Source: Bacilli bacterium (GTDB taxonomy: Bacteria > Bacillota_I > Bacilli_A > RF39 > UBA660). Taken from it: 64,000 nucleotides of DNA. The stretch covers positions 97,759 to 161,758 of the forward strand of contig JAEENX010000013.1 in the NCBI GenBank assembly GCA_016283935.1, in the 5' to 3' direction. Below the pieces are notes generated by a model. The model ran no database searches. It was not told where the DNA came from and saw nothing but the letters and a program-made list of their open reading frames with translations. A program made the position numbers and the translations under genes. Positions within the stretch are counted from its first letter, which is position 1, and each line of letters opens with the position of its first letter. Below, piece by piece: positions 733-35,075 of this stretch.

Positions 733-1677
733 TTACACCCACTTTATAAATAATTTATTAATGCTCATATCTCTAATACTATTTTTATTTAAATCTGATA
801 TTATTTCATCAATCAACAATATTCTCTTAGATAAAATAGAAATATCATTAACTGAAATTGAATCTAATACCTGATTAGAAAACTCTAAATTATTATAATA
901 ATTATATACTATATTTTCAAATTTAATTGTATAAATTCTCTTTAATAGTTTAAAAATAAATAATATTTCATTTCTTTCTTTTTTTGAAAGATTTTTACTA
1001 TTAGTAATTAACTCATATGATTTCAAATGTTCTAAGTCATAAACTAATTTCATAGTTTGATCAAAATATTTTTCATATTCTTTATCAGTAATATCAAGTA
1101 AACTTAAAATATTATCAGTTCCATATCTAAAATTATATATTTCACATCGTGAAACAATAGTAGATATCATTTTATCAAATGAATCAGTTATAAAGAATCC
1201 AATAATATTAGGATTTGGTTCTTCAAGAAACTTTAATAATTTATTAGCTGCATTTCTATTTAATTTATCTGCTTCGAAAACAATATATATTTGATATTTA
1301 GATACTAAAGGAGTTGTTCTAAATAAATTAACTAAACCATCAATTTGTTTTGTTGTGATTTCAGTCTTTAAAGTATCCAATTTTTTACTTTTTGTAGATA
1401 CTTCTATATCTCTAATTTTTTCATCTTCTTTATCATCTTTATCTAAACGTCTTAATACTAATAAATCAGGATTATTATTATTTTTAATTAAATTACAAAT
1501 TTTGCAAGTACAATGTTCATCTCCATCAACTTCACATTCTATTTGTCTTGCAATATCAATAACATCAGTTAAACAATCATTTATATTATTTGTTTCAATT
1601 AAAAAAGCATGGGAATTATTATTCTCATGAAATGAATTCAAAATAGTTTCCTTAGCTTTTTTACTTTCCATAAACAC
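733..1677 (-). CDS. holB: DNA polymerase III delta' subunit (HolB)
   Basis: 314-aa ORF with AAA+ clamp-loader-like N-terminus (HAFLIE) and Cys cluster (CTCKICNL). Synteny recR-holB-yaaT. The start may be the internal Met (MESKK) at 1671. Confidence 0.7.
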   Translation of the reverse strand: MFMESKKAKETILNSFHENNNSHAFLIETNNINDCLTDVIDIARQIECEVDGDEHCTCKICNLIKNNNNPDLLVLRRLDKDDKEDEKIRDIEVSTKSKKLDTLKTEITTKQIDGLVNLFRTTPLVSKYQIYIVFEADKLNRNAANKLLKFLEEPNPNIIGFFITDSFDKMISTIVSRCEIYNFRYGTDNILSLLDITDKEYEKYFDQTMKLVYDLEHLKSYELITNSKNLSKKERNEILFIFKLLKRIYTIKFENIVYNYYNNLEFSNQVLDSISVNDISILSKRILLIDEIISDLNKNSIRDMSINKLFIKWV

Positions 1678-4655: not shown

Positions 4656-4672
4656 AATTACCTCAATAAAAA

Positions 4673-4749
4673 AAATGCGCACACGATTAGTGAATGTTAT
4701 GGCTGCTGTGTTCCCACTCTGACCAGGTTCCAATATAACCGTTGCGCAA
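4673..4749 (-). ncRNA. ffs: Signal recognition particle RNA. This is the minimal 4.5S/scRNA type of about 77 nt.
   Basis: Minus-strand sequence UGCGCAACGGUUAUAUUGGAACCUGGUCAGAGUGGGAACACAGCAGCCAUAACAUUCACUAAUCGUGUGCGCA followed by U8. It contains the domain IV signature UGGUCAG...GGAA tetraloop...AGCAGCC, closed by a GCGCA/UGCGC terminal stem. Location between tadA and dnaX matches scr placement in Firmicutes. Confidence 0.8.
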
Positions 4750-4752
4750 AAA

Positions 4753-4781
4753 TATTATAACATATCCTATAAATTAATCAA
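4753..4781 (-). promoter_or_regulatory. Putative sigma-A promoter of ffs
   Basis: On the minus strand, TTGATT (plus 4776-4781), a 16-nt spacer, then TATAAT (plus 4753-4758), ending about 6 nt before the SRP RNA 5' stem. Confidence 0.4.
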
Positions 4782-32098: not shown

Positions 32099-32536
32099 AT
32101 GAGAGTAGCTATAGCAACAGACCATAATGGTGTAGAACAAAAATCAGAATTAATATTTTTCTTAGGAACTAAAGGAATAGAAGTAGTAGATATGTCTAAA
32201 GACAATAATCCTACTGATGATTATCCTGATTTTGCATTAAGAGTAGCAAATGCAGTTTCTAATAATGAAGTAGATTTAGGTATTCTAATGTGTGGAACAG
32301 GAATAGGTATGTCTATTGCTGCTAATAAAGTTAAAGGTGTAAGATGTGCTAAAGTATCTTCAGAAGAAGAAGCATTCTTAGCTAGACAACATAACAATGC
32401 TAATATTATTGCATTATCATATAAAGCTCCATTAGATGATTTAAAGATAATGATTGATAAATTTGTAACAACAGAATTTTCAAATGATGAAAGACATATA
32501 AGAAGAATTAATAAGATAAGTGAGATAGAAAAATAA
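32099..32536 (+). CDS. rpiB: Ribose-5-phosphate isomerase B (RpiB/LacAB family)
   Basis: MRVAIATDHNG... and GILMCGTGIGMSIAANKVKGVRCA. Confidence 0.85.
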   Translation: MRVAIATDHNGVEQKSELIFFLGTKGIEVVDMSKDNNPTDDYPDFALRVANAVSNNEVDLGILMCGTGIGMSIAANKVKGVRCAKVSSEEEAFLARQHNNANIIALSYKAPLDDLKIMIDKFVTTEFSNDERHIRRINKISEIEK

Positions 32537-32733
32537 TGATTGAATTAATTATATATGCAATTTGCTTATTATCCTCAGTATTTGCTGTAAGTGGAATAAA
32601 CTTTGAAAAAATAATATATAAAGGTGCTATATGGCAAACAAGATTACTTGTATTATTAATTACATTTACTCTTACTGTTGGATCAGCAAACTTATTTATA
32701 TTCTTTATAAATTATATAAAAAATGCAATATAA
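32536..32733 (+). CDS. Small 2-TM membrane protein, hypothetical
   Basis: 65-aa hydrophobic ORF overlapping the rpiB stop (ATGA). Confidence 0.3.
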   Translation: MIELIIYAICLLSSVFAVSGINFEKIIYKGAIWQTRLLVLLITFTLTVGSANLFIFFINYIKNAI

Positions 32734-32763
32734 AAGAGAGACTAAACAGTCTCTCTTTTATTA
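32733..32763 (+). terminator. Rho-independent terminator of the rpiB operon
   Basis: AGAGAGACTAAACAGTCTCTCT followed by TTTTATT. Confidence 0.55.
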
Positions 32764-32777
32764 ATCATTTCATATCT

Positions 32778-32876
32778 AAAAAAAATAGAAGCCGGCCCCC
32801 TGAGACCAGCTTCAAAGAATAAAAAGGGGTTGGCTAGTGTGATACTAGCACCAATTCGCCTGTAAGTGAATTGGTA
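32778..32876 (-). ncRNA. Candidate small RNA of about 100 nt. It has its own promoter and terminator, and is C-rich (RsaE/RoxS-like CCCC motif).
   Basis: Minus strand: TTGACA-17-TAGTAT promoter (plus 32883-32911). Two hairpins follow (CCAATTC..GAATTGG, GCTAGT..ACTAGC). Then single-stranded CCAACCCCUUUUUAUUCUUUGAAG. Then a strong terminator hairpin GAAGCUGGUCUCAGGGGGCCGGCUUC plus U8. Confidence 0.4.
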
Positions 32877-33074
32877 AGATATATACTAATCGAAAGGGGT
32901 ATATTTGTCAACTAAAATATATCGATTTTTAGGTATTTTTCATAATTTTTTTACCAGGGTATAACCTCAGGTTATATCCTATAATTTAAATATAATTTCA
33001 AGTTATAAATGAGGTATTTTTTAGTATTTTATAGATTATAAATGTTATAATAAAAATATGAAAGGAGCATATAT

Positions 33075-35075
33075 ATGGAACTAATAAATATAAAAGGAAT
33101 TGGACCTAAAACATTAGAATTATTAAATAAAGTTAATATATATACAATTGACGATTTAGTTAGATATTATCCATATAGATATAATATTTATACTCCTTCA
33201 AATATTCTTGATGCTTCTTCAGATGATACTATTGTAGTAACTGGAACTGTTACATCAAATGCAAATGTATTTTATATTAGAAGAGGTTTTAATAGATTAA
33301 CCTTTACTTTTGAAACAAATAATATAAATATTAAAGTAGTTATATTTAATCGTGATTTTTATAAAAGACTTATTACTATAGGAAAGACTATATCTTTAAT
33401 TGGAAAATATGATAAATTAAAAAATAATTTTGTATGTGCAGATATTAAATTTAAACCCATATTAAAAACAGAAGTTGAACCTGTTTATCATATGGTATCT
33501 GGATTATCTAAGGCTACATTAATTAAATCTATAGATGTTGCTGTTAATAATTCTTATATAAACGAAATAGTGCCAAGTAATATTTCATCTAAATATGAAT
33601 TAATGAATACCATAGATGCTATCAAAGAAATACATCATCCATCAGATTCAAAAAGATTAAAAGATGCAACTATCAAATTGAAATATGAAGAATTATTTGA
33701 ATTTATGTTTAAAATTAATTTAATAAAATATAAGAATCAAATATTCGATGATTTTGTTGTAAAAGATATATCAGAAGAAATGATAAAGAAAGTATTATCA
33801 TATGTTCCTTTTGATTTAACTGAAGACCAATTGTCTACGTTTAATGATATCATATCTGACTTTAAAGGTATTAAAAGAATGAACAGATTAATATTAGGTG
33901 ATGTTGGATCAGGAAAAACAATTGTATCTTTCCTTTCTATCCTACTAAATCATGAATGTGGATATCAAAGTGCATTATTAGCACCAACTGAAGTATTAGC
34001 TGAACAACATTATAAAAACTTTATGGATTTATTTAAAAAATTAAACTTAAATGTTGCATTATTAGTTGGTTCAGTATCAAAAAAAGATAAAGAAGATATC
34101 TATAAGAGATTAGAAGATGGTTCTATAGATGTTTTAATTGGTACACATGCAATTCTAGAAGATAAAGTGGTTTTTAATAACTTAGGTTTAGTTATTACAG
34201 ATGAACAACACAGATTTGGGGTTAACCAAAGAAATGCACTAAAAAATAAAGGTATGTTTGTAGATGTATTATATATGTCAGCAACACCAATACCTAGAAC
34301 ATATGCATTAACAATATATGGAGATATGGATATATCCATGATTAAACAAAAACCATCTGGTAGAAAAGATATAATAACTGAACAATATAAGTTCAATGAT
34401 ATAAAGACAGTAATGGATTCGATAGAATCACAAATAAAAGAAGGTCATCAAGTATATGTAATAGCGCCATTAATAGAAAATGATGATGAAGAAACTAATG
34501 AATTAAATGATTTAAAAAAGATAAAAGAAATATTATTACAATACTTACCTAAAGAAACAAAAATAGATATTTTACATGGTAAAATGAAAAATGTTGATAA
34601 AGATTCAGTAATGAACAATTTCAAAGATGGTAATTCAGATATTCTATTATCTACAACTGTTGTTGAAGTTGGTGTTGATGTTAAAAACGCTACCGTAATT
34701 ACAATATTCAATGCTGAGAGATTTGGTCTTGCAACTCTTCACCAATTAAGAGGTAGAGTTGGAAGAAACTCTCTACAATCATATTGCTATTTATTATCTG
34801 ATAAAGATTCAGATAGATTAAAAGTACTATGTGAATCAAATGATGGTTTCTATATATCTGAAAAAGATTTTGAATTAAGAGGTTCAGGCGACTTATTTGG
34901 AGTAAGACAATCTGGTGATATGGTATTTAAAATTGCCAATTTACAAACGGATTATAAGATTTTATTACAATGTAAGAAAGATACTGATGTATTTATTAAA
35001 GAAAATATAGAAAATGACTTTGCTAATTATAAATATTATAGTAATATATTACATTGTCTTATGGAAAACAATTAA
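33075..35075 (+). CDS. recG: ATP-dependent DNA helicase RecG
   Basis: Helicase motif I GDVGSGKT, II TDEQHRFG, VI QLRGRVGR. N-terminal wedge domain. Confidence 0.9.
   Translation: MELINIKGIGPKTLELLNKVNIYTIDDLVRYYPYRYNIYTPSNILDASSDDTIVVTGTVTSNANVFYIRRGFNRLTFTFETNNINIKVVIFNRDFYKRLITIGKTISLIGKYDKLKNNFVCADIKFKPILKTEVEPVYHMVSGLSKATLIKSIDVAVNNSYINEIVPSNISSKYELMNTIDAIKEIHHPSDSKRLKDATIKLKYEELFEFMFKINLIKYKNQIFDDFVVKDISEEMIKKVLSYVPFDLTEDQLSTFNDIISDFKGIKRMNRLILGDVGSGKTIVSFLSILLNHECGYQSALLAPTEVLAEQHYKNFMDLFKKLNLNVALLVGSVSKKDKEDIYKRLEDGSIDVLIGTHAILEDKVVFNNLGLVITDEQHRFGVNQRNALKNKGMFVDVLYMSATPIPRTYALTIYGDMDISMIKQKPSGRKDIITEQYKFNDIKTVMDSIESQIKEGHQVYVIAPLIENDDEETNELNDLKKIKEILLQYLPKETKIDILHGKMKNVDKDSVMNNFKDGNSDILLSTTVVEVGVDVKNATVITIFNAERFGLATLHQLRGRVGRNSLQSYCYLLSDKDSDRLKVLCESNDGFYISEKDFELRGSGDLFGVRQSGDMVFKIANLQTDYKILLQCKKDTDVFIKENIENDFANYKYYSNILHCLMENN

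What the first reader, a model, noticed from the sequence alone, without database searches (positions are those of the whole stretch)
32778..32911. Candidate 100-nt C-rich sRNA on the minus strand upstream of recG, with an RsaE/RoxS-like CCCC-UUU motif
A canonical TTGACA-17-TAGTAT promoter is followed, about 100 nt later, by one of the strongest terminators in the window (a GC-rich 10-bp stem plus U8). No ORF lies on that strand. The RNA would fold into two 5' hairpins and a single-stranded CCAACCCCUUUUUAUUCUUUGAAG segment. That segment resembles the ACCCCUUUGUUUGAAG module of RsaE/RoxS, a C-rich anti-Shine-Dalgarno sRNA of Bacillales. The GC-rich patch is conspicuous in an about 28% GC genome.
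Basis: partly seen in the sequence, partly recalled or inferred. Interest (0 to 1): 0.55.

Follow-up and report, generated by a model that had tools for sequence, protein, structure and literature searches.

The report
Conserved small RNA gene beside recG
This is very probably a real gene for a ~98-nt non-coding RNA of an uncatalogued family, kept almost letter-for-letter identical in uncultured gut/rumen Bacilli and partly copied by phages; it resembles the RsaE/RoxS regulator only in one short C-rich motif.

Summary
On the minus strand, TTGACA-17-TAGTAT (32911-32883) is followed by a ~98-nt unit (32875-32778). It has a 5' hairpin H1, hairpin H2, a 19-nt single strand CAACCCCUUUUUAUUCUUU, and terminator hairpin H3 plus U8.

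About 180 homologous copies (148 distinct) were found in MAGs and metagenomes of uncultured Bacilli. Each copy with enough flank has the same promoter. H1 and H3 covary (8/8 and 11/11 pairs). H2's inner stem, its loop and, wherever it was free to vary, the single strand never change, even where RecG is only 39-50% identical.

The gene usually lies back-to-back with recG. No Rfam 15 family matches. RsaE scores 22.6 bits against a threshold of 79, out of register, and this RNA has one CCCCUU motif where RsaE has two.

Six phage contigs carry the invariant H2 plus single-strand module, 100% identical, directly after tRNA-like elements upstream of their packaging genes.

Most likely it is a new stand-alone sRNA family acting in trans through the invariant module, probably by pairing with purine-rich ribosome-binding sites. 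The invariant H2 stem also implies a sequence-specific partner. Expression and targets are untested.

The parts
32906..32911 (-). -35 hexamer TTGACA of the sRNA promoter. An A-rich stretch lies upstream in most homologues.
   Evidence: TTGACA occurs in 141 of 168 homologues with flank and TTGACT in 24. See also the alignment.
32883..32888 (-). -10 hexamer TAGTAT, 17 nt after the -35 hexamer.
   Evidence: The spacer is 17 nt in 164 of 168 homologues. The -10 hexamer is TAGTAT (92), TATTAT (40) or TAATAT (17).
32778..32875 (-). Predicted ~98-nt transcript. The 5' end is inferred: A of ACCA is the 8th nt after the -10 hexamer, and sequence invariance starts there. The 3' end is inferred to lie within the U8 tract.
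   Evidence: Covariance model R1 matches 32782-32876 at 110.4 bits, E = 9e-22, and this is the only copy in the window. The transcript ends are inferred, not measured.
32850..32875 (-). Hairpin H1: ACCAAUUC paired with GAAUUGGU, with a variable loop. It sits at the very 5' end.
   Evidence: All 8 pairs show double (compensatory) changes across 72 distinct sequences, and 96.4% of cells are paired. Example variants: ACCAAUCC/GGAUUGG, ACCAAAUC/GAUUUGGU, ACCUAUUC/GAAUAGGU.
32833..32849 (-). Hairpin H2: GCUAGU-AUCAC-ACUAGC. This is the invariant stem-loop.
   Evidence: Five of 6 pairs never vary in 72 distinct sequences. Only the closing pair changes (G-C to A-U twice, G-U eight times). The loop differs in only two contig types (L138; L145 and L157). 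The hairpin is 100% identical in the phage copies.
32814..32832 (-). Single-stranded invariant segment CAACCCCUUUUUAUUCUUU, containing one CCCCUU motif.
   Evidence: Identical in all 66 homologues found through recG, a sampling that does not depend on this sequence. Mean predicted probability of being unpaired is 0.98 across 43 members.
32788..32813 (-). Hairpin H3. In this genome it is the intrinsic terminator stem. Its apex YCAGGGGG is conserved in most members.
   Evidence: All 11 pairs show double changes. In one clade H3 has no U-tract and a fourth hairpin terminates instead.
32778..32785 (-). U8 tract of the terminator.
32730..32761 (.). Second hairpin, AAAAGAGAGACUG...AGUCUCUCUUUU. It is probably a bidirectional terminator shared with the convergent DUF1146-like gene (32536-32733, + strand), and a back-up terminator for the sRNA.
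   Evidence: Comparable second hairpins occur in many homologous loci.
33075..35075 (+). recG, the divergent neighbour. Its own extended -10 element TGTTATAAT lies at 33043-33051.
   Evidence: Pfam finds the RecG wedge, DEAD, Helicase_C and RecG_dom3_C domains. The adjacency is conserved. The promoter motif is located.

Best explanation
The region 32778-32911 (minus strand) is a gene for a stand-alone, ~98-nt non-coding RNA. It belongs to a family not catalogued in Rfam 15 and is conserved in uncultured gut/rumen Bacilli.

A near-consensus sigma-A promoter starts transcription at the base of a 5'-terminal hairpin (H1). By analogy with other Firmicute RNAs, H1 may protect the 5' end; this is inferred. 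An intrinsic terminator (H3 plus U8) ends the transcript.

The working part is the invariant module between them: hairpin H2 (GCUAGU-AUCAC-ACUAGC) followed by 19 unpaired nucleotides, CAACCCCUUUUUAUUCUUU.

My preferred mechanism is inferred, not shown. The RNA acts in trans. Its exposed C/U-rich strand pairs with purine-rich ribosome-binding regions (AAAAAGGGG or AAGGGG type) and blocks translation initiation, as the unrelated RsaE/RoxS does with its CCCCUU motifs. H2 is a handle read in a sequence-specific way by a partner not yet identified.

Shown here: conserved promoter, covarying helices, invariant module, strand specificity, synteny with recG, and the absence of any Rfam match.
Inferred: transcript ends, expression, action in trans, and pairing with ribosome-binding sites.

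My confidence that this is a real RNA gene of a new family is about 0.9. The figure given for this explanation refers to the whole statement, including the mechanism.
For: - Homologues lie next to recG in 65 of 80 related genomes.
- The promoter is conserved in position and spacing in 168 of 168 copies with flank.
- Structure: 96.5% of cells are paired, against 83% in shuffles and 26-51% when partners are slid. Twenty of 25 pairs show compensatory changes.
- G-U pairs in H1 and H3 fit only the minus-strand RNA.
- A 1-nt insertion (C) between H1 and H2 in a whole clade excludes a reading frame.
- The 19-nt strand is predicted unpaired with P = 0.98 in 43 members.
- It contains CCCCUU, the motif through which RsaE binds AAGGGG Shine-Dalgarno-like sites (PMC6158497).
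- Genes on the downstream side are variable and mostly convergent, so the element is not a leader.
- There is one copy in the window.
Against: - No expression data exist, because every carrier is uncultured.
- No conserved complementary site was found in 1.58 Mb of flanking sequence. Ranking of translation-start regions in the window was not decisive.
- Only about 4% of ORF starts in the sampled loci have an A[AG]GGGG-type Shine-Dalgarno sequence.
- Invariance over about 36 nt, including both strands of the H2 stem, is more than a base-pairing seed normally needs. It is typical of RNAs bound by proteins or by the ribosome.
- A strong, apparently constitutive promoter and persistent linkage to recG are not features expected of a condition-specific riboregulator.
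Confidence: 0.45

Rival explanations
1. A housekeeping-type RNA that works by binding a conserved protein or the ribosome, as a scaffold, sponge or mimic, rather than by pairing with mRNAs. H2 plus the pyrimidine tract would be the binding platform. Phages copy that platform to reach the same partner.
For: - The inner 5 bp and the loop of H2 never vary in 72 distinct sequences, while the flanking helices H1 and H3 covary freely. H2 is therefore read by sequence, not only by shape.
- The core is 100% identical where RecG is 39-50% identical, a level of conservation comparable to tRNA.
- The promoter is near-consensus with a fixed 17-nt spacer, as in stable-RNA genes.
- Six phage contigs carry exactly H2 plus the single strand, in the sense orientation, after tRNA-like elements. 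That fits mimicry of a binding site.
Against: - No candidate partner gene co-occurs in the loci examined.
- No known protein-binding motif was recognised (CsrA GGA, K-turn and HutP UAG repeats were considered from my own knowledge).
- The two functions are not mutually exclusive with pairing.
Confidence: 0.3
2. A local regulator of recG, acting by antisense pairing with read-through recG transcripts or by promoter interference from the back-to-back arrangement.
For: - recG is the neighbour in 65 of 80 loci found through recG, and in 77 of 117 copies found through the RNA. It is mostly divergent, with about 100-260 nt between H2 and the recG start.
- In 23 of 62 loci the sRNA -35 hexamer is only 29-50 nt from the recG start codon. 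No obvious separate recG promoter is seen there (by inspection).
- Adjacency persists even in three loci where the sRNA gene is inverted (L072, L108, L181).
Against: - In this window recG has its own extended -10 element (TGTTATAAT, 33043-33051), 131 nt away from the sRNA -35 hexamer.
- In 16 of 62 loci the gap between the sRNA -35 hexamer and recG exceeds 300 nt, consistent with inserted genes.
- Local interference would not require an invariant 36-nt RNA module or covarying hairpins.
- It would not explain the phage copies.
Confidence: 0.1
3. A true, divergent member of the RsaE/RoxS family.
For: It shares a single-stranded CCCCUUU motif, a Bacilli host, a size of about 100 nt, and an intrinsic terminator.
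Against: - RF01820 scores 22.6 bits against a gathering score of 79. The alignment is out of register and the C-rich motif is unaligned.
- RsaE gives no hit when only the transcript is searched.
- This RNA has one C-rich motif instead of two duplicated ones.
- The rest of the claimed resemblance (UUUGAAG) lies in a variable stem.
- The invariant H2 has no counterpart in the RsaE consensus shown.
Confidence: 0.03
4. Primarily a DNA element: a phage attachment site, as tRNA and tmRNA genes are, or a protein-binding palindrome.
For: - A 37-42-nt stretch is identical in phage contigs.
- H1 and H2 are palindromes at the DNA level.
Against: - No prophage junction (H1 plus core plus a phage-type tail) was found in about 180 copies.
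- In the phages the copy lies upstream of the terminase/portal module in a gene-free stretch, with no integrase-sized ORF nearby (by ORF size only).
- G-U pairs, a strand-specific U-tract and a conserved promoter argue for selection on an RNA.
- Use as an attachment site would in any case be secondary to the gene's own function.
Confidence: 0.05

Closest known systems
RsaE / RoxS (Rfam RF01820), the C-rich sRNA of Staphylococcaceae and Bacillaceae
   Same: - Stand-alone RNA of about 100 nt in Bacilli, with an intrinsic terminator.
- An accessible CCCCUU(U) motif complementary to AAGGGG-type Shine-Dalgarno-like sequences.
- Unusually high sequence conservation for an sRNA (PMC6158497 and PMC4409812, as listed).
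   Different: - No covariance-model match.
- One C-rich motif rather than two duplicated ones.
- Different architecture: 5'-terminal H1, an invariant H2, then the single strand.
- Different hosts: uncultured Bacilli with about 25% GC.
- Conserved linkage to recG.
- No ResD/SrrA or Rex control is known or visible here.
Other Firmicute sRNAs that use C-rich single strands or loops against ribosome-binding sites (for example FsrA, LhrC, csRNAs; named from my own knowledge, not tested individually)
   Same: The general logic is shared: a pyrimidine-rich accessible segment flanked by hairpins, probably independent of Hfq.
   Different: None is matched in Rfam 15 at E up to 10 over the transcript. 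Those families show ordinary stem covariation and narrower conservation.
Stable housekeeping RNAs (6S RNA, SRP RNA, tmRNA)
   Same: - Strong consensus promoter.
- Near-invariant sequence blocks over deep divergence.
- A single copy.
- Phage-borne copies or mimics are known for tRNA and tmRNA-type genes (own knowledge).
   Different: - Size and fold match none of them.
- SRP RNA is found separately at 4668-4753.
- No partner protein has been identified.
Phage RNA mimicry of host RNAs, for example the pseudo-ToxI of phage PhiTE (own knowledge)
   Same: Phage contigs carry a sense-strand, 100% identical copy of the functional core of a host RNA.
   Different: - There is no adjacent toxin gene and no repeat array.
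- The host RNA is far more conserved than type III antitoxins.
- The purpose of the phage copy is unknown.

Membership tests
RsaE/RoxS (RF01820) | Covariance-model score at or above Rfam's gathering score (79 bits). | tested here: not met
   The score is 22.6 bits. The model is aligned to H3 plus the downstream terminator (32729-32815), not to the transcript body. There is no RsaE hit when only 32776-32884 is searched at E up to 10.
RsaE/RoxS (RF01820) | Two duplicated single-stranded CCCCUU motifs (PMC6158497). | tested here: not met
   There is one CCCCUU, at 32829-32824. No other CCCC occurs in the transcript. The feature is taken from the paper read.
RsaE/RoxS (RF01820) | An accessible C-rich motif complementary to AAGGGG Shine-Dalgarno-like sites. 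| tested here: met
   CCCCUUUUU lies in a 19-nt segment with mean P(unpaired) of 0.98 in 43 members.
RsaE/RoxS (RF01820) | Promoter control by SrrAB/ResDE and Rex, and repression of TCA-cycle, folate and arginine-catabolism mRNAs. | not testable with these tools
   This needs expression and genetic data from a cultured carrier. Only a conserved sigma-A-type promoter is visible.
Stand-alone trans-acting sRNA gene (generic kind) | Own promoter and intrinsic terminator conserved in position, with no ORF. | tested here: met
   The promoter is present in 168 of 168 copies with flank. The terminator stem covaries in 11 of 11 pairs. No ORF of 30 aa or more is present. A 1-nt indel within the conserved block excludes coding.
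Stand-alone trans-acting sRNA gene (generic kind) | A detected transcript of the predicted size. | not testable with these tools
   No transcriptome data are available here. All carriers are MAGs or metagenome contigs.
Stand-alone trans-acting sRNA gene (generic kind) | Conserved complementary target sites. | tested here: inconclusive
   Only the window and recG-centred loci (1.58 Mb) could be searched. No recurrent site was found.
Riboswitch or cis-regulatory leader | A conserved downstream gene on the same strand, controlled by the element. | tested here: not met
   The downstream sequence and genes vary and are mostly convergent. A terminator follows with no expression platform.
Any Rfam 15 family | A match at the gathering threshold. 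| tested here: not met
   Only SRP RNA, elsewhere in the window, passes. Sub-threshold hits over the unit are generic hairpin or terminator matches.

The most novel reading that the evidence does not exclude
The RNA is not a condition-specific riboregulator. It is a new stable, housekeeping-type RNA of an order-level clade of uncultured gut Bacilli. Its invariant 36-nt module (H2 plus the C/U tract) would be the docking site for a conserved cellular machine, either a protein or the small ribosomal subunit. Phages would have grafted exactly that module behind tRNA-like elements in the leader of their packaging and structural genes to use or block the same partner.
Probability: 0.25. Interest if true: 0.8.

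Novelty: new member of a known kind. Interest (0 to 1): 0.6.

Why it matters
These small-genome Bacilli, labelled Bacilli, Mollicutes, Tenericutes or 'Candidatus Onthousia' in the MAG records, are widespread in human, rodent, rabbit, chicken and ruminant gut samples. None is cultured, so nothing is known of their RNA regulators.

An RNA kept letter-perfect over about 55 nt while a neighbouring helicase diverges to 40-50% identity must do something central. It is a ready target for metatranscriptomics and for synthetic tests.

The phage-borne copy of its core gives a natural experiment in RNA mimicry. The family also supplies a clean covariance model that could be added to RNA annotation resources.

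Tried and rejected
- **Rfam 15.** Searched at gathering score over the whole window, and at E up to 10 over three nested sub-regions. Nothing matched the unit. Hits to RsaE, RsaF, STnc50, MicX and U11 were generic hairpin or terminator matches, or lay on the wrong strand.
- **Coding potential.** No ORF on the minus strand. The plus-strand ORF at 32631-32822 overlaps a real gene and crosses the covarying H3 stem. A 1-nt indel in the conserved block excludes a conserved peptide.
- **Paralogues in the window.** None were found.
- **Phage genome collection.** BLAST with the whole RNA gave no match. IMG/VR pattern scans gave 5 contigs.
- **Phage attachment-site idea.** No prophage junctions were seen.
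- **Known large RNA in the phage non-coding stretch.** Only sub-threshold c4-2 and tRNA hits. ARAGORN called no tRNA or tmRNA.
- **CCCC pairing with the conserved GGGGG apex of H3 (pseudoknot or auto-inhibition).** Folding does not favour it. More distant members lack the G-run. Both partners are otherwise invariant, so covariation cannot test it.
- **boxA-like or 16S 3'-tail-like reading of the single strand.** The resemblances are only short and of low complexity, recalled from memory, and were not pursued.
- **Search for complementary sites.** Covered all 1.58 Mb held; only chance hits. The enolase AAGGGG Shine-Dalgarno lead collapsed to three contigs whose queried enolase N-terminus and upstream region are almost identical.
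- **Literature.** A full-text search for the sequence itself gave no paper. A search for recG-associated RNA motifs gave nothing relevant.

Full report
**1. The observation**

Reading the minus strand and the consensus scans confirm the described elements:
- TTGACA at 32911-32906, a 17-nt spacer, and TAGTAT at 32888-32883.
- A hairpin at 32813-32788 (11 pairs, 6 G-C), followed by UA and then U8 at 32785-32778.

No ORF of 30 aa or more lies on that strand. The predicted RNA folds far better than shuffles (-36.1 kcal/mol, z = -4.9). It forms four parts:
- a 5'-terminal hairpin H1 (ACCAAUUC/GAAUUGGU);
- a second hairpin H2 (GCUAGU-AUCAC-ACUAGC);
- an unpaired CAACCCCUUUUUAUUCUUU;
- the terminator H3.

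The patch has GC 0.38-0.41 in a window of GC 0.25.

Promoter-like hexamers are no more frequent here than in shuffles (22 against 20.4). On the sequence alone, only the terminator is above chance (3 against 0.4).

**2. Relatives**

*Sampling through recG.* The neighbouring gene is recG (Pfam). Using RecG to fetch related genomes gave 80 loci, all from MAGs of uncultured Bacilli. These are labelled Bacilli, Mollicutes, Tenericutes, Erysipelotrichales or 'Candidatus Onthousia'.
- nhmmer and blastn found the RNA gene in 65 of the 80. The covariance model finds nothing in the other 15, most of which have short flanks.
- The block from ACCAAUUC through GCUAGUAUCACACUAGCCAACCCCUUUUUAUUCUUU is essentially invariant, although RecG is only 49-89% identical.
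- One clade has a single extra C between H1 and H2. This excludes a conserved reading frame on either strand.

About 113 of these carry the family, one carries a phage-type copy, and three are chance matches.

Altogether about 180 copies (148 distinct with flanks) were collected. All 168 with enough upstream DNA have a sigma-70-type promoter scoring at least 9/12. Of these, 164 have a 17-nt spacer and 141 have TTGACA.

**3. Structure**

On a model-based alignment of 72 distinct sequences, 96.5% of cells form standard pairs. This compares with 83% in column shuffles and 26-51% when partners are slid by 1-3 columns.
- H1: all 8 pairs show compensatory double changes.
- H3: all 11 pairs show them.
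- H2: only the closing pair changes (G-C to A-U twice, G-U eight times). Its inner five pairs never vary, and its loop differs in only two contig types (L138; L145 and L157).

The alignment is fitted to the model, which favours the structure. The slid controls share that bias and still fall far below.

G-U pairs in H1 and H3, and the U-tract, make sense only for an RNA read from the minus strand.

The single strand is predicted unpaired with P = 0.98 in 43 members.

In one clade H3 has no U-tract. There the RNA continues through an A-rich linker to a fourth hairpin that carries the U-tract. H3 is therefore a structural element in its own right. Its apex YCAGGGGG is common but missing in more distant members.

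**4. What it is not**

- *Not any Rfam family.* No Rfam 15 family reaches its threshold here.
- *Not RsaE.* RsaE scores 22.6 bits against 79. The printed alignment puts RsaE's first hairpin on H3 and RsaE's terminator on the next hairpin downstream, and leaves RsaE's UCCCAUCCCCUUUGU opposite a U-run. Searching the transcript alone, RsaE is not listed at all. RsaE works through two duplicated CCCCUU motifs that bind AAGGGG sites (PMC6158497), whereas this RNA has one.
- *Not a leader or riboswitch.* The downstream side varies and is mostly convergent.
- *No paralogue in the window.* The window holds a single copy.

**5. Context**

The RNA gene and recG are neighbours whichever of the two is used to find the loci.
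- 65 of 80 loci found through recG carry the RNA.
- 77 of 117 copies found through the RNA have recG nearby. It is mostly divergent, with about 100-260 nt between H2 and the recG start.
- In 23 of 62 loci the sRNA -35 hexamer is only 29-50 nt from the recG start codon.
- In three loci the sRNA gene is inverted but still adjacent (L072, L108, L181).

In this window recG has its own extended -10 element (TGTTATAAT, 33043-33051). Local interference is therefore not needed to explain recG expression here.

**6. Phage copies**

Five IMG/VR contigs and one metagenome contig carry GCUAGUAUCACACUAGCCAACCCCUUUUUAUUCUUUU, 100% identical and in the sense orientation of the phage genes. These copies lack H1 and H3.
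- The module starts directly (0-1 nt) after the 3' end of a tRNA-like element (one scores 35.3 bits with Rfam tRNA).
- It sits inside a gene-free stretch of about 700 nt upstream of the large terminase, portal and major head genes.
- No prophage junctions were seen among the bacterial copies, and no integrase-sized ORF lies nearby. An attachment site is therefore unlikely.
- The simplest reading is that phages copied the functional module.

**7. Mechanism**

*Firmly supported:* this is an RNA gene whose hairpins H1 and H3 are selected for shape. H2 and the following 19 nt are selected for exact sequence.

*Inferred:* I favour a trans-acting RNA whose exposed C/U-rich strand pairs with purine-rich ribosome-binding regions, as RsaE does.
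- For: the strand's accessibility, its CCCCUU content, and the architecture typical of Firmicute sRNAs.
- Against: I found no conserved complementary site in the 1.58 Mb available. Ranking of start regions in the window is not decisive. AAGGGG-type Shine-Dalgarno sequences are rare, at about 4% of sampled starts.

The invariance of both strands of H2, the stable-RNA-like promoter and the phage copy point to a sequence-specific partner, either a protein or the ribosome. I keep that as a strong rival or complement.

**8. Verdict**

It is wrong in another: this is not RsaE/RoxS. Function remains inferred. Transcript mapping and whole-genome target or partner searches are the decisive next steps.

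Noticed in passing
L081 6428-6470 (+); L082 4305-4347 (-); L083 10650-10691 (-); L084 8113-8155 (+); L085 9456-9498 (-); L186 about 1421-1460 (+): Phage contigs carry a 100% identical copy of the sRNA's invariant module (H2 plus the C/U-rich strand, then UUAGAUA) without H1 or H3. The contigs encode TerL, portal and major head protein. The module starts 0-1 nt after a tRNA-like 3' end, inside a gene-free stretch of about 700 nt upstream of the packaging genes.
   Followed up: partly
L082 4352-4500 (-): A 149-nt tRNA-like element: acceptor GGGAAAG...CUUUCCC-A-CCA, with three consecutive T-arm-like hairpins (GGUUCGAnUCC). It scores 35.3 bits with Rfam tRNA, but ARAGORN does not call it. A different tRNA-like element precedes the module in L081, L083, L085 and L186.
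   Followed up: no
L083 11012-11092 (-): A sub-threshold match to the phage c4-2 antisense RNA family (24.3 bits against 41) in the same phage non-coding stretch. The stretch may be an island of several small RNA genes.
   Followed up: no
L002-L010, L012-L015, L018, L020, L022 and others (recG at about 4001): In 23 of 62 loci the sRNA -35 hexamer is only 29-50 nt from the recG start codon. The shared sequence TTGTCAA reads as a -35 hexamer in both directions, and I saw no separate recG promoter by eye. recG may be transcribed through or against the sRNA gene in those genomes.
   Followed up: partly
window 32958-32979 and 33000-33010 (+): An inverted repeat GGTATAACC-TCA-GGTTATATCC, plus a further AAGTTATAAAT half-site, lies between the sRNA promoter and recG. 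The same TATAAC-N5-GTTATA arrangement occurs in L001, L011 and L017, the loci with the long spacer. It is a candidate operator.
   Followed up: no
L044, L050, L059, L063, L064, L066, L068, L070, L072, L074, L075, L079: In this clade hairpin H3 has no U-tract. The RNA continues CUUAGAUAAAAA...AAAAGAGA into a fourth hairpin that carries the U-tract, which would give an RNA of about 150 nt.
   Followed up: partly
window 4668-4753 (-): A small (4.5S-type) SRP RNA scoring 55.3 bits. It is the only Rfam family at gathering score in the 64-kb window. The short form suggests a reduced, Mollicutes-like RNA complement.
   Followed up: no
L143 (1115 nt), copies at 104-206 and 894-995 (-): One short metagenome contig holds two non-identical copies of the sRNA gene flanking a recG fragment. 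This is probably an assembly chimera of two strains.
   Followed up: no
window 32631-32822 (+): A 63-aa ORF overlaps the DUF1146-like gene, the second hairpin and H3. It is almost certainly spurious, because it crosses stems that covary.
   Followed up: partly
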